A DNA stretch of 64,000 nt from Glaucostegus cemiculus (taxonomy: Eukaryota): NCBI GenBank assembly GCA_976551045.1, contig CDPCPM010000435.1:992001-1056000 (forward strand), read 5' to 3'. This document shows positions 12,078-52,790 of this stretch, one piece after another. The notes beneath the pieces are model-generated. The model was given only the letters and a program-made list of their open reading frames with translations, was not told where the DNA came from and did no database searches. The stretch's first letter is position 1; each line of letters begins with the position of its first letter. A program made the translations under genes and the position numbers.

Positions 12078-12430
12078 TAGATAAACAAAGGACTGCAGAT
12101 GCTGGAATCTAGATGAAAAAAACAAGATGCTGGAGGAACTCAGCAGGCCAGGCAGCATCCGTGGAGAAAAACAGTCAATGTTTCGGATCAGTACCCTACT
12201 TCAGGACTGAACATAGGAAAAGGGGAAGCCCAATTTATAGGGGGGAAAAGCAGAGCAGTGATAGGTGGTTGAAAGAGGGGAGGCGGTGTGGACACAGGGT
12301 AAATGCAGGTTAGAGATAGTGATAGGGAAGATGCGGGGGAAGGAGGGGAGAACATATCCACCGGGGCATGGCTCAAAGATATGGAGGCAGGCAGGATGAG
12401 GGGAGGGGGGAGAGGGGAGGGAAAAGAAAA
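12078..12430 (-). mobile_element. Penelope-like terminal repeat with degenerate hammerhead ribozyme motif
   Basis: Minus strand 12209-12172 reads CAGTC CTGAAGT AGGGTACTGATCC GAAAC ATT GACTG. The same repeat adjoins a GIY-YIG fragment at 21001. Confidence 0.7.
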
Positions 12431-15441: not shown

Positions 15442-15714
15442 CTCGTTGACATATGGCCGCTTTACTCCTTGCCCAGGCATCTGTTGTGTTGGTCGGGGTC
15501 CTGCATATCCGTGCTGTGGCATTCGCTGGCTCTGTGCACTGAACATGGGGTTGATACCGGGTGGCCTTGAGTGGGCCATAGACATGTGTGATATACTTGA
15601 TGGTCCCATTGGGCCAGCCATTCCTCCTGTGGTCATTCCAGTGGACATCTGCGGTGAACCACGAGGGCCAGAGTGACTGATGTATTGGTTGTTATAGGAT
15701 TGAGCTGCACTTAT
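15442..15714 (-). CDS. ZMIZ2: ZMIZ coding exon (273 bp): ISAAQSYNNQYISHSGPRGSPQ...GVKRPYVNE
   Basis: Acceptor CTACAG|ATA, donor GAG|GTAACT, phase 0 to 0; GPRG, QRMPQHGY and KRPY motifs. Confidence 0.94.
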
Positions 15715-15854
15715 CTGTAGAAGAAAAGCAGATAAAACATCAGTTAAGTGTTTTGCTGAATCCCTGTGAATAATGTTTCTGAGCTAGAAAATGGGACATG
15801 TCGCTTTGTCATAAGCTAGTTATCACCACTGGCGTAGCAGGATCAACATAGGAA

Positions 15855-17030
15855 CAACAGAGTACAAGTACATAGTTCACTGAAAGTGGAGACACAGGTA
15901 GACAGGGTGGTGAAGAAGGCATTTGGCACACTTGCCTTCATCAGTCAGGGCACTGAGTACAAGAGCAACACAAAAAAATGCTGGAGGAACTCAGCGGGTC
16001 AGGCAGCATCTGTGGAGGGAAATGGACAATCGACGCTTCAGGTCAAGAACCTTCATCCGGAACAGTCTGTATGAAGGGTCTCGATCTGAAACGACGACTG
16101 TCCATTTCCCTCCATAGATGCTGCCTGACCCACTGAGTTGCTCCAGATTCCAGCATCTGCAGTCTCTTGTGTCTCTACTGAGTCCAAGAGTTGGGATATC
16201 GTGTTACAACTGCACAAGACTTTAGTGAGACTGCACTTGGAGTATTGTGTGCAGTTCTGGTCATCTAGCTATAGGAAGGACGTGATTAAGCTATAAAGGG
16301 TCCAGAAAAGATTCACAAGGACTGGGTATGAGGTCTACCAGCTATGTCAAATAAGAAATTGAGCAAGCTAGGCCTCGTATACCAGAGTTCAGACAGATGA
16401 GAGGTTCCAGGTCCTGCTCAAAGTCACTTGTGAGATTGGAAGAGACTTCTTCCATATTCCCTGACATTTCACTCACACCTTAATGCTGGTGTAACTATGT
16501 CTGAGGCCTTAATGTGCATGTCCATTAGACTTAGACTTTCAGCTGCCTGTGGCTAAACAAAGCACTTACTTCCATTACCAGGTCTGGAAGGCGTGAGTTA
16601 TAAAGAGAGACTGGATAGGTTGGAGCTTTTTGCCCTGGAGTGAAGGGGACTGATTGGGTGACCTTACAGAGGTTTATAATATCATGAGGGGCACAGATAA
16701 GGTGAATCGTCGCAGTCTTTTTCCCTGTGGTGGGGGGTGTAAAATTACAGGCCACAGATGTAAGGTAAGGGGGAAGAAATTTTAAAGGGGACCTGAGGGG
16801 CAACTTTTTCGCACAGAGGGTGGTGAATCTATCGAACGAGCTGCCAGAGGAAGTGGTAGAGGTGGGTACAATTACAACGTTTAAAAGAAATTTGGACAGG
16901 TACATGGATAGAAAAGGTTTAAAGGGATACAGGCCAAACGCTGGCAAATGGGACTAACTCAGGTAGGCATCTTGGTTGGCATGGACAAGTTGGGCAGAAG
17001 GGCTAAACTCCATGCTGTATAATTCTATTC
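15855..17030 (+). mobile_element. CR1 LINE 3' fragment, interrupted
   Basis: ETQVDRVVKKAFGTLAFISQGTEYKS resumes after the insertion at 16191; 3' end lies at 16575-17030. Confidence 0.85.
15966..16176. mobile_element. ~211-bp foldback element made of two inverted Penelope-type repeats, with a 14-bp TSD
   Basis: Arms of about 80 bp at ~15981-16059 and ~16068-16147 are reverse complements. Flanks are ACTGAGTACAAGAG (15952-15965) and ACTGAGTCCAAGAG (16177-16190). Confidence 0.8.
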
Positions 17031-20494: not shown

Positions 20495-21600
20495 AATTAC
20501 GACGGGCATAGGTAGTTTAGATTGACCTAATCTTTTTCCCAGGGTAAGGCAGTTTAGAAGCAGAAGACACAGGTTTAAGGTGAGAGGCGAGAAATTTAAG
20601 GAAGATCGAACCAGTAAGCGTTTCACACAGATGGTGGTGAATAGTCATAATGAGCTGCCAGAGGAGATAGAACATAGAACATAGATACCTACAGCACAAT
20701 TCAGGCCCTTTGGCCCACAAAGCTGTGCCGAACATGTCCCCACACTATTAGGCTTACCCATAGCCTTCTATCTTATTTACCTCCATGTACCTATCCAACA
20801 GTCTCTTGAAAGACCCTATCGTATCCGCCTCCACCACCATCTCCGGCAGCCCATTCCATGCACAAAAAGTATCCAGATAATAAACTGCTGATCATGGTTT
20901 CTTAACTGAAAGTTGGCGACTGAGTGAAATATATTTCAATTTGAGCATTAATAAATCAGGTACAACAGGACAGTTAAAAAAAGAAACGTATTATCCTGCT
21001 AGAGAAACGAAGGACTGCAGATGCTGGAATCCAGGTGAAAAACACGATGATGCTGAAGGAACTCAGCAGGCCAGGCAGCACCCGCGGGGAAAAGCAGGTG
21101 GCCAACTGCCCGGGTCAGGACCACCCCCCCCACCCCACCCCCCACGACTGAAAAGGGGAAGCCCAATAGACAAGAGATTCACCTGCACCTCCCCTAATGT
21201 CATCCACTGCACTCGGTGCTCCAAGTGTGGCCTCCTCTACATTGGCGAGACCAAACACAGAGCAGGTGACCATTTTGCAGAACACCTGCGCTCTGTCCAT
21301 AACCACGATTTACATCTCCCCGCCACCAGTCACTTCAACTCCCCCTCCCACACTATCACTGATATGTCAGTCCTCGGCCTCCTCCACTGCCAGGAGAATT
21401 CCAGGCACAAAGAACAGCAGCTCATTTTCCGTCTTGGAACCTTGCAGCCTAGGTAGTGGAGGTAGCTACTAACACAACATTTCAAAGGCATTTGGATGGG
21501 AACGTGGATAGGAAAGGAGTTGAAGGATACGGGCTAATGTGGGCATCACAGTCGGCATGGATGAGGTGGGCCATAAGGGTCGTTTCTGCGCTGTATGTTT
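20495..21600 (+). mobile_element. CR1 3' fragment split by a ~785-bp composite insert (20667-21450)
   Basis: GAGCTGCCAGAGGAG ends at 20666 and resumes as AGGTAGTGGAGG at 21451, matching the contiguous CR1 sequence seen in other copies. Confidence 0.7.
21001..21450 (+). mobile_element. Penelope-like element fragment: inverted terminal repeat plus GIY-YIG endonuclease
   Basis: RFTCTSPNVIHCTRCSKCGLLYIGETK...FAEHLRSV...HFNSPSH...LIFRLGTLQP. Confidence 0.88.
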
Positions 21601-28599: not shown

Positions 28600-28815
28600 A
28601 TTTTCTCTCCCTTACCTCTTTTCCTCTGCCAACCTAAATCGGTTCTGCAAACCTGTCCCTATCACTCAGTATCAATCCATACATCACGCAAGTGATTTCC
28701 AGCTTTTTCTTGTCCTGATGAAAGTAGATTGACCTAAAATATTTCTCCTGTCCTCTCCACAGACGCTGACTGACTTGCTGAGTATTTCCAGCATTTCCTT
28801 TTAATTTCAGTTTTC
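28600..28815 (+). mobile_element. Old Penelope-like terminal repeat with CTGATGA core
   Basis: GTCCTGATGAAAG..TTGACCTAAAA followed by CTCTCCACAGACGCTG..TGACTTGCTGAGTATTTCCAGCA. Confidence 0.6.
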
Positions 28816-34452: not shown

Positions 34453-35992
34453 TTGAAGGAGGTGGCTCTAGAAATTGTGGATGCATTGGTGATCATTTTC
34501 CGATGTTCCCTAGATTCTGGGTCAGTTCCTGAGGATTGGAGAATGGCCAATGTTATCCCACTTTTTAAGAAAGGAGGGAGGGAGAAAACGGGGAACTATC
34601 GTCCAGTTAGCCTGACGTCTGTGGTGGGGAAGATGCTAGAGTCCATTATTAAGGATGAAATAGCAGCATATTTGGATAGCAATGATAGGATTGGGTCGAG
34701 TCAACATGGATTTACCACGGGCAAATCGTGCTTGGCTAATCTACTGGAGTTTTTTGAGGATGTAACCAGGAAAATAGACGAGGGAGATTCGGTGGCTGTT
34801 GTGTACCTCGAACTTCAGAAGGCATTTGATAAGGTGCCGCACAGGAGATTGGTGGGTAAAATTAGGGCTCATGGAATTGGGGGGAGGGTATTATCATGGA
34901 TGGAAAACTGGTTGGCTGATAGGAAACAAAGGGTAGGGGTGAATGGTTGTTTCTCAGAATGGCAGGCCGTGACTAGTGGGGTGCCGCAGGGCTCGGTGCT
35001 GGGACCGCAGCTGTTTACAATCTATGTTAATGATTTAGATGAAGGCATTCAGAATAACATTAGCAAGTTTGCTGATGATACAAAGTTGGGTGGCAGGGCG
35101 ACATGTGTAGAGGAAGTTAGGAGGATTCAAGGTGACTTGGATAGGTTGGGTGAGTGGGCAGATACTTGGCAGATGAAGTTTAATGTGGATAAGTGTGAGG
35201 TTATCCACTTTGGGAGCAGGAACAGGAAGGCGGATTATTATCTGAATGGTGTGGAGTTAGGTAAAGGGGAGGTACAAAGGGATCTAGGAGTCCTTGTTCA
35301 TCAGTCTCTGAAAGTGAATGAGCAAGTGCAGTAGGCAGTGATGAAGGCTAATGGAATGTTGGCCTGTATTACGAGGGGAATTGAGTACAAGAGCAAAAAG
35401 ACTCTTTTGCATTTGTACAGGGCCCTGGTGAGACGGCTCCTGGAGTATTGTGTACAGTTTTGGTCTCCGGGGTTAAGGAAGGATATCCTGGCTATAGAGG
35501 GCGTGCAGCGTAGGTTTACGAGGTTAATTCCGGGGATGTCGGGACTGTCTTATGCAGAGAGGTTGGATGGACTGGGATTGTACACGCTGGAATTGAGAAG
35601 ATTGAGAGGGGATCTGATTGAAACATACAAGATTGTTAAGGGATTGGACAAGATAGAGACAGGAAATATGTTCCAGATGTTGGGGAAGTCCAGGACCAGA
35701 GGGCATGATTTAAGAATAAGGGGTAGGCCATTTAGGATAGAGGTGAGGAAAAACTTCTTCTCCCAGAGGGTTGTGAGTTTGTGGAATGCACTGCCTCAGA
35801 GGGCAGTGGAGGCAAATTCTCTGGGCACTTTCAAGAAGGAGCTAGACAGGTTCCTTATAGGTAGGGGAATCAAGGGATATGGAGACAAGGCAGGAACGGG
35901 ATATTGAGTGTTGAGGATCAGCCATGATCTCAAAATGGTGGAGCAGACTCGAAGGGCCGAATGGTCTACTTCTGCTCCTATTGTCTATTGTC
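34453..35992 (+). mobile_element. Young 5'-truncated CR1 LINE with nearly intact RT (one in-frame stop)
   Basis: ORFs 34453-35334 and 35338-35907 share a frame separated by a single TAG; NYRPVSLTS, KAFDKVPH, GVPQGSVLGP and FADD motifs; CTATTGTCTATTGTC tail. Confidence 0.97.
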
Positions 35993-43327: not shown

Positions 43328-43535
43328 GAGACACAAGAGGCTGCAGCTGCTGGAATCTGGAGCAACAAACAATCTGCTGGAGAAACTCAGCGGGTCGAGC
43401 AGCATCTGTGGGGGTGGGGAATGAATTGCCAACGTTGTTCCAGATTCCAGTATCTGCAGTCTCTTGTGTCTAGTCCTGATGCAGGGTTCTGACCCAAAAC
43501 ATCAACAATTCCTTCCCCCCCCACACAGACGCTGG
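43328..43535. mobile_element. Rearranged inverted Penelope-type repeat with degenerate hammerhead motif
   Basis: 43330-43361 is inverted to 43439-43470; AGTCCTGATGCAGGGTTCTGACCCAAAAC begins at 43472. Confidence 0.7.
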
Positions 43536-50169: not shown

Positions 50170-50575
50170 ACTGGACAACCTCTCTCTCCTCCTGATCTCC
50201 CCAGTTCCTCCCACACCCACCCCACATTCATCCCCTATCGCCCTGTTTCTTCACCCACTCCACCTACCCGCACACACACACCTCCCATTGGGTCCCCTTC
50301 CCCTACTGTTTCCATCTGCCCTCCCCACCCATCACCTCCCAGCCCCCGTCACCATCTCCACTCTCCCCTCCTCCACCTGCCTGTCACCTCCCCTCACCTG
50401 GATCCACTTATCACTTGCCAGCTCTTGCCCACTCCTTCCCCTCAACTCTTTACACAGGCCATCGCCCCTCTTATCTTTCAGTCCAGATGACAAGAAACGT
50501 TGACAGTCCATTTCTCTCCACAGTTGCTGCCTGACCCACTGCCTAATTCCTCTAGCAGTTTGCTTTTTCATTCTT
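50170..50575 (+). mobile_element. Penelope-like terminal repeat, pyrimidine-rich, hammerhead stem II deleted
   Basis: CAGTCCAGATGACAAGAAACGTTGACAG at 50479-50506, followed by the conserved TCTCCACAG.TGCTGCCTGACCC. Confidence 0.65.
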
Positions 50576-52039: not shown

Positions 52040-52790
52040 TAGAATCAAAGAGTCATACAGCACGGAAACAGGCCCTTCGGCCCAACTAGTCCATGCTGTC
52101 CAAGTTACCTACCTAAGCCAGTCCCATTTGCCTGCATTTAGCCCGTATCCCTCTAAACCTTTCCCTTCCATGTACCTGTCTAAATGCCTTTCAAACATTG
52201 CAATTGTACTGGTCTGTACCACTCCTTCTGGCAGCTTGTTCCATATTCCGCAGCACCTAACACACTCTATAAAAGATTTGCCCCTTACTTCCCCTTTAGA
52301 TTTTCCCCCTTTCACTTTAAATCTACGCCCTCTAGTTTTAGACTCCCCTACCCTGGGAAAAACACTGTGGCCATTCGCCCTGTCAATGCCCCTCATGACA
52401 TTGTGTATCTCAGAAAGATCACCTTTCAGTCTCTTATGCTCCAGGGACAAAAGCCCCAGCTTATCCGGTGTCTCCTTATAACACAAGCCCTCCAATCCCG
52501 GCAACATCCTTGTGAATCTTTATCACACCCTTTCCAGCTTAATGACATTCTCCCTATAGCTCAGCACCCAATACGCCAAACACGGTCTCACCAACATCTT
52601 GTACAGTTGTAACATGATGTCCCAACTCTTGTTCTCAGTGCCCTGACTGATGAAGTCAAGCCCTGCCAAGTGCCTTCTTCACTAAGCCGCATCGCTGTTT
52701 TCAGGGAATTATGTACCTCTAGGTCTCTCCATTCCACAACACTCTCCAGGGCTCTGGTTTAACTTCCCAAAATGCAATGCTTTGCACTTG
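52040..52790 (-). mobile_element. CR1 LINE 3' fragment
   Basis: MLPGLEGLCYKE..RLKGDL..ESKTRGRRFKV. Confidence 0.88.

What the first reader, a model, noticed from the sequence alone, without database searches (positions are those of the whole stretch)
15952..16190. Miniature foldback element built from two inverted hammerhead-type Penelope repeats, inserted with its own 14-bp TSD
Seen: a ~211-bp unit interrupts a CR1 exactly between duplicated ACTGAGT(A/C)CAAGAG sequences. It has two ~80-bp inverted arms and no coding sequence. Each arm carries a degenerate hammerhead core: plus strand 16063-16100 CAGTC TGTATGA AGGGTCTCGATCT GAAAC GAC GACTG, and on the minus strand CGGATGA..GAAGCGTC. Known: Penelope-like elements carry minimal type I hammerheads in their terminal repeats and often insert with inverted 5' ends. 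Inference: this is either an extreme truncated-inverted Penelope insertion or a non-autonomous, retrozyme/MITE-like family mobilised by Penelope RT/GIY-YIG, with a ribozyme motif in both orientations.
Basis: partly seen in the sequence, partly recalled or inferred. Interest (0 to 1): 0.7.

Follow-up and report, generated by a model that had tools for sequence, protein, structure and literature searches.

The report
Shortest-form inverted Penelope retrotransposon insertion
This 211-base hairpin is a one-off, very short insertion of a common Penelope-type jumping gene, made of two head-to-head copies of its end with broken ribozyme cores; it is ordinary, except that such copies very often stop at one spot that likely marks where the element's RNA begins.

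Summary
In detail: 211-bp unit (15966-16176), 81-bp arms 86% complementary, 14-bp TSD (13/14), and a paralogous LINE copy with the target once. It is the known EN+ Penelope-like (PLE) layout (inverted pLTR, one ~35-nt tail, TSD) at minimal size, not a self-copying MITE or retrozyme. Its centre is unique in the genome, 27 of 27 similar units have different centres, and arms show no master-foldback signature. Both hammerhead cores in this copy are broken; the family has an intact minimal hammerhead.
Less ordinary: 27 of 90 arms, picked without regard to their 5' end, stop within -3..+6 of helix I's first base (27 of 58 ending nearby, against 8% in a control). There is no pile-up at the cleavage site. 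In two master-like copies this module sits just before the ORF. Likely mechanism: both nicked strands prime reverse transcription at the two internal start sites, both cDNAs run off the RNA's 5' end, and the ends are joined. The RNA 5' end is inferred, not shown. The scan found this structure, and hints of the hotspot, several times before in this and other genomes.

The parts
15952..15965 (+). left copy of 14-bp target-site duplication
   Evidence: single copy in paralogous LINE at 52560-52700
15966..16061 (-). tail-less arm: Penelope pLTR end from the proximal outer end (inferred RT start 1) to the helix I hotspot
16027..16061 (-). degenerate minimal type I hammerhead (U4 to G, A15.1 to G, stem I and II changes)
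16062..16062 (.). junction base between the two arms; the centre as a whole is unique in the genome
16063..16100 (+). degenerate minimal type I hammerhead (C3, U4, G5 and U16.1 changed; C11.1 to U)
16063..16176 (+). tailed arm: pLTR end from the hotspot to the distal outer end (inferred RT start 2); private ~20-nt deletion near 16139/16140 between short direct repeats
16142..16176 (+). ~35-nt PLE tail, on one arm only
   Evidence: PMC8557442 passage
16177..16190 (+). right copy of TSD
15866..15965 (+). host LINE fragment (CR1-like ORF2 end; label recalled), left part
   Evidence: blastn to 52626-52682; translation
16177..16330 (+). host LINE fragment, right part
   Evidence: blastn to 52507-52639 and 35428-35483; ORF 34453-35331 has RVT_1 E=2e-32
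15442..15715 (-). neighbouring exon of an unidentified host gene; the unit likely lies in its intron, ~250 nt upstream in transcript direction
   Evidence: one 5236-nt contig of run X1 (RNA is the tool's guess) covers exactly this stretch; gene not identified

Best explanation
The unit is a single, now inert insertion of two head-to-head copies of a Penelope-like element's pLTR end, likely built at the moment of insertion by reverse transcription primed on both nicked DNA strands, each cDNA likely running off the 5' end of the element's RNA at hammerhead helix I. Shown here: fixed outer ends ~35 nt apart with the tail on one arm, TSD, unique centre, hotspot of inner ends, position of the module just before the ORF in two master-like copies. 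From literature (anole element, in vitro): both strands are nicked and extended, and RT starts at two internal sites that define the tail. Inferred: staggered nicks 14 nt apart; transcription start at or next to the A of the initiator-like YCAGT, 95-135 nt upstream of the RT starts; joining of the two cDNA 3' ends by end-joining with 0-16 filler bases. The unit does not copy itself and its ribozymes are predicted inactive.
For: Link to element: 20 of 20 endonuclease-bearing loci have the arm downstream; GIY-YIG hit E=0.003, below Pfam cutoff. One tail only: 72 of 88 and 38 of 42 two-armed units. TSD score >=8: 19 of 88 vs 1 of 150 controls, 18 of 42 vs 0 of 100. No master: centre 1 hit at <=3 mismatches; 27 of 27 centres distinct, 16-41 nt; tail-tail identity 0.823, tail vs tail-less 0.820, within-unit 0.858, subfamily columns concordant within units (p 0.001-0.012). 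Hotspot: 27 of 90 arms at -3..+6, 27 of 58 among those ending within 60 nt, control 8%; 4 of 90 within 4 nt of the cut site; seen in tailed (15 of 42) and tail-less (14 of 48) arms; both-at-hotspot 5 of 50, as independence predicts; 81 of 100 arms of 50 double-core units (two loci are one duplicated unit) start at or just after the A. Contigs of four related organisms show loose ends at the same 3 bases with no shared upstream sequence. L341 and L346 show arm-tail-ATG-ORF. 7 of 17 scorable tandem loci join a hotspot arm to different points of the ORF start, none at a GT. PMC11167929 (parts 1-2 read).
Against: No raw RNA reads: the RNA 5' end is not shown. No intact master found (endonuclease hits: longest open frame 395 aa of 150 scored), and of six loci whose ORF start runs on far, three keep upstream pLTR, two lack the arm and at most one starts near the hotspot. 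At least one hotspot call (L111) is a mis-assigned stem II junction; breakpoint error exceeds 5 nt in 31% of simulations. The and one search sets are selected for short centres, so only and the 400-kb sample are unbiased for this. In D. virilis the same position is an intron end, 121 nt after the start site. No clear cap-derived G (6 G, 7 A, 1 T of 14, read by eye). TSDs passed the cut-off in under half of units.
Confidence: 0.7

Rival explanations
1. Same one-off insertion, but the second arm arises by snap-back self-priming (fold-back of the first cDNA or of an antisense template), as Arkhipova et al. 2013 proposed for head-to-head PLE repeats.
For: PMC3846280 passages. Within-unit arms are more alike than between units (0.858 vs 0.82). 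A second cluster of partner ends at columns 21-25, the stem II palindrome (9 of 50).
Against: Needs a separate reason for the second arm to stop exactly at the proximal outer end; the two in vitro RT starts explain both ends. Hotspot occurs in either arm independently, also beside long partners (5 of 50). Centres carry filler bases, not clean loops.
Confidence: 0.12
2. The hotspot is not a transcription start but a 3' splice site (pyrimidine tract then CAG) or an RT stop caused by the hammerhead-shaped cDNA hairpin.
For: Acceptor-like sequence directly before helix I; D. virilis Penelope intron ends at helix I (PMC4209133).
Against: No shared 5' exon upstream of hotspot arms (agreement 0.31-0.41 at the two cleanest positions); 0 of 7 ORF-to-arm joints at a GT donor; no GT..AG joint among the 15 of 204 joints shown; many centres leave no room for an exon. 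The RT-stop variant was not testable.
Confidence: 0.12
3. A non-autonomous, self-copying foldback family (MITE- or retrozyme-like) mobilised as a whole by Penelope proteins.
For: Many units share both outer ends and ~210-230 bp size; 307 exact double-core centres genome-wide vs 3 in the reversed control; very short centres recur.
Against: Unique centre here; distinct centres; no arm-specific shared mutations (1 column of 87 at p=0.02); continuum of arm lengths; no one-strand A-to-G excess in 56 units (p=0.96) or in this unit; motifs are inverted, not tandem.
Confidence: 0.04
4. A functional host hairpin or ribozyme element (co-opted).
For: Strong hairpin in a probable intron.
Against: Changes follow neutral decay incl. 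CpG loss and hit core positions; no Rfam match; no evidence of conservation obtained.
Confidence: 0.02

Closest known systems
Insertion units of EN+ Penelope-like elements: inverted 5'-truncated pLTR, 30-40-bp tail, TSD (Pen2a_Av in PMC3846280; Fig. 2 legend of PMC8557442; passages read)
   Same: Head-to-head pLTR copies, tail on one side, TSD of 9-14 bp and more
   Different: No ORF at all; both arms end at the same 5' hotspot; far higher copy number than in the rotifer
Poseidon of Anolis carolinensis, PAc (PMC11167929, parts 1-2 of 4 read)
   Same: Two internal RT starts bounding the tail, ~100-135 nt downstream of the hammerhead; both strands extended; ribozyme cleavage not needed
   Different: Here the ATG follows the tail rather than lying in stem II; linker Cys motif points to Neptune clade; evidence is genomic, not biochemical
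Minimal type I hammerheads of metazoan PLEs (PMC4209133, parts 1-2 of 4 read)
   Same: Family motif: 5-bp helix I, extra base before helix II, palindromic ACGU in place of helix III; opposite-strand pairs were noted in Schistosoma
   Different: This copy's cores are broken; one abundant subfamily has U4 changed to A (32 of 61 arms)
Non-LTR retrozymes (bioRxiv 10.64898/2026.07.22.740005, part 1 and passages read)
   Same: Non-coding, pLTR-derived, type I hammerhead
   Different: Retrozymes are head-to-tail tandems with intact cores; this is an inverted pair with dead cores and a TSD
MITEs / foldback DNA transposons (recalled)
   Same: Short, non-coding, long inverted arms, TSD
   Different: Ends asymmetric, centre never shared, TSD length variable, retroelement origin

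Membership tests
EN+ PLE insertion unit | sequence derives from the pLTR of an RT + C-terminal GIY-YIG element | tested here: met
   E=0.003, under cutoff; 20 of 20
EN+ PLE insertion unit | inverted 5'-truncated copy adjacent at the 5' end | tested here: met
EN+ PLE insertion unit | 30-40-bp tail on one end | tested here: met
   35 nt here; 72 of 88 and 38 of 42 units
EN+ PLE insertion unit | target-site duplication | tested here: met
Neptune clade | CX2-5CXXC linker between RT and EN | tested here: met
   linker-type motif in 10 of 20 decayed loci, read by eye; L258 ORF; definition
Neptune clade | RT phylogeny groups with Neptune | not tested
   no reference RT set on hand
Minimal type I hammerhead (family consensus) | CUGAnGA / GAAA / UH core with helices I and II | tested here: met
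   368 exact 34-mers, 76 of 100 listed with U4; L045 motif forms helices I and II
Minimal type I hammerhead (this copy) | intact core | tested here: not met
Minimal type I hammerhead | self-cleavage | not testable with these tools
   needs in vitro assay
Non-LTR retrozyme | head-to-tail tandem units each with intact hammerhead | tested here: not met
Non-LTR retrozyme | small circular RNA | not testable with these tools
   only contigs available
MITE-like non-autonomous family | copies share both ends and the interior, descending from a master | tested here: not met

The most novel reading that the evidence does not exclude
These stubs are double 'strong-stop' products: the Penelope RNA starts at an initiator overlapping hammerhead helix I, the RT starts inside the 5' pLTR on both target strands and runs off the cap, so a retroelement mass-produces tens of thousands of MITE-like hairpins without any master copy, and the same run-off followed by a template jump makes its partial tandems. 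The genome would then map the RNA's 5' end and the order of PLE integration steps.
Probability: 0.55. Interest if true: 0.55.

Novelty: new member of a known kind. Interest (0 to 1): 0.3.

Why it matters
The single copy matters little. The statistics of its relatives bear on an open question: how PLEs make inverted ends, tails and partial tandems, and whether the hammerhead cut defines the template (here copies begin ~33 nt upstream of the cut, and a subfamily with a changed core base spread widely). They give a precise, testable prediction for the RNA 5' end. Practical point: such stubs will be mis-annotated as MITEs or ribozyme elements.

Tried and rejected
Rfam scan at E<=10: 3 chance-level hits, no hammerhead family. 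Expression: no RNA holder listed on record; only contigs, so no RNA ends, strand or level; 'places where molecules begin' empty. Orthologous empty site in relatives: no listed contig spans the repeat, undecided. Splice-junction test: negative but only 15 of 204 joints shown. ADAR-type strand scar: none. Cap-G signature: inconclusive. Intact master: not found; an 806-aa frame led to a locus whose long ORF is another LINE inserted in a Penelope copy. L262 was fetched with the flank on the wrong side, so it shows little upstream. Host gene: 0 Pfam hits, Atlas best 0.86, a lead only; a likeness to ZMIZ-type proteins is recalled and unconfirmed. Literature: no paper on this hotspot or on shark/ray Penelope stubs surfaced in searches (listings seen; subscription papers, Repbase/Dfam and supplements not seen, and the supplements of PMC4209133 and PMC11167929 may bear on it). 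One search's deletion count (51 of 125) was a loose pattern and is superseded.

Full report
Observation. The unit spans 15966-16176 between a 14-bp direct repeat with one mismatch. The arms are 81 nt and 86% complementary, and the RNA hairpin is far beyond shuffles (z -14.9). The flanks belong to one LINE fragment: a paralog at 52560-52700 has the 14-mer once, and the flank is homologous to an ORF downstream of an RVT_1 hit. The name CR1 is recalled. A contig from run X1 covers 15442-15715 on the minus strand, so the unit probably sits in an intron; the gene was not identified. The organism is probably a shark or ray (recalled from the repeat and from earlier notes, not tested).

What the arms are. 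Each arm is the end module of a very common repeat: 72 arm hits in 400 kb of evenly spaced sample against 0 in the reversed control, roughly 5 x 10^5 arms of related families if that sample is typical. Long copies continue upstream through a pyrimidine-rich 3' UTR into GIY-YIG and RT ORF pieces; 20 of 20 endonuclease loci are followed by the arm. A CX4CX2C-type linker in about 10 of 20 points to the Neptune clade. Two loci show the other side: hammerhead, arm, tail, then an ATG and the ORF start. So the outer ends of the unit are internal points of the element's RNA, as for the two RT start sites of the anole element. No intact master was found.

Layout. Among two-armed units exactly one arm has the tail in 72 of 88 and 38 of 42 (8 of 50 loci lacked a called arm). 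TSDs pass the score cut-off in 19 of 88 and 18 of 42, against 1 of 150 and 0 of 100 swapped-flank controls. This is the layout described in PMC3846280 and PMC8557442 (passages).

Family or one-off. A pattern for two adjacent cores finds 307 exact places against 3 in the control; three such units lay in the 400-kb sample, which scales to about 20,000 with a wide range (about 4,000-60,000, hand Poisson estimate). But they do not descend from a master. This centre has one hit at up to 3 mismatches. 27 of 27 centres differ (that set is enriched by the query). In 50 more, only 1-3-base centres and one local duplication recur. Tailed arms are no more alike among units (0.823) than tailed versus tail-less (0.820), while the two arms of one unit are more alike (0.858) and share subfamily variants. 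No one-strand A-to-G excess was seen.

Ribozyme. The family motif is the minimal type I hammerhead of PMC4209133. In this copy the plus core has C3, U4, G5 and U16.1 changed, the minus core U4 and A15.1; neither folds better than shuffles. By established hammerhead knowledge (recalled) both are inactive. Each strand holds one sense motif, buried in the long stem, so the active dimer cannot form in cis. Only 3 of 61 unbiased arms keep the full core, and 32 of 61 have A at position 4, a subfamily trait that fits cleavage being dispensable.

The hotspot. 90 arms were chosen by a 32-mer downstream of the hammerhead (the first 90 of 1815). 27 end at -3..+6 of helix I's first base, 27 run past -140, 4 end within 4 nt of the cut site; uniform truncations through the same pipeline put 8% in the hotspot bin. 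At least one call is mis-assigned and the method errs by over 5 nt in 31% of simulations, which does not remove the excess. It holds for tailed and tail-less arms, and double-hotspot pairs (5 of 50) match independence. The edge is sharp: 81 of 100 arms start at or just after the A of YCAGT. Contigs from four related organisms show loose ends at the same three bases with no common upstream sequence. In tandem loci, 7 of 17 scorable second arms begin at the hotspot and are joined to different points of the ORF start, none before a GT, which looks like a jump from a template end rather than splicing.

Mechanism. Most likely the endonuclease nicked both strands 14 nt apart, RT primed on each at one of the two internal starts in the 5' pLTR, both cDNAs ran to the RNA's 5' end at helix I, and the ends were joined. 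Long copies would come from the same starts in the 3' pLTR. The one-off PLE origin is near certain (about 0.93); the RNA-end reading of the hotspot is inferred (about 0.6). Against it: no RNA data, the D. virilis intron ends at this position with the start site 121 nt upstream, ORF-start copies did not show a clean start at the hotspot, and snap-back priming is the published alternative.

Novelty. The structure is known. I found no paper on the hotspot in ten searches (listed under Tried and rejected), but coverage is limited. Earlier notes of this scan reached the same filing many times, and two noted the shared stop; these are unchecked AI notes, not support. Interest 0.3.

Noticed in passing
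window 43328-43520: Tailed inverted arm, then a tail piece joined directly to a further arm that begins at the hotspot: a head-to-tail jump product of the same family.
   Followed up: partly
window 12079-12197, 21001-21080, 28755-28796, 50488-50561: Further decayed pLTR-end copies, some with upstream 3' UTR.
   Followed up: partly
L053; L363, L367, L369, L374, L380, L382, L389: Arm-tail-ORF-start pieces joined to a second arm starting at the hotspot; in L053 both arms start there.
   Followed up: yes
L101-L190, family-wide: Core position 4 is A instead of U in 32 of 61 arms and is concordant within units: a widespread subfamily with a changed catalytic core base.
   Followed up: partly
L110, L114, L164, L167, L174, L188: A second junction class centred on the stem II palindrome of the hammerhead, suggesting microhomology annealing.
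   Followed up: partly
L031-L036: Pattern hits with shared flanks on contigs C3 and C4: copies inside a larger repeated segment.
   Followed up: no
L312 2568-4559 (minus): A 663-aa RT-type ORF of another LINE inserted in a Penelope copy.
   Followed up: no
window 34453-35904: LINE ORF2 piece with RVT_1 (E=2e-32) and only one stop between two long frames.
   Followed up: no
window 15442-15715 (minus): Pro/Gly/Met/Gln-rich coding exon, about 97% identical to a contig of a related organism; gene unidentified.
   Followed up: partly
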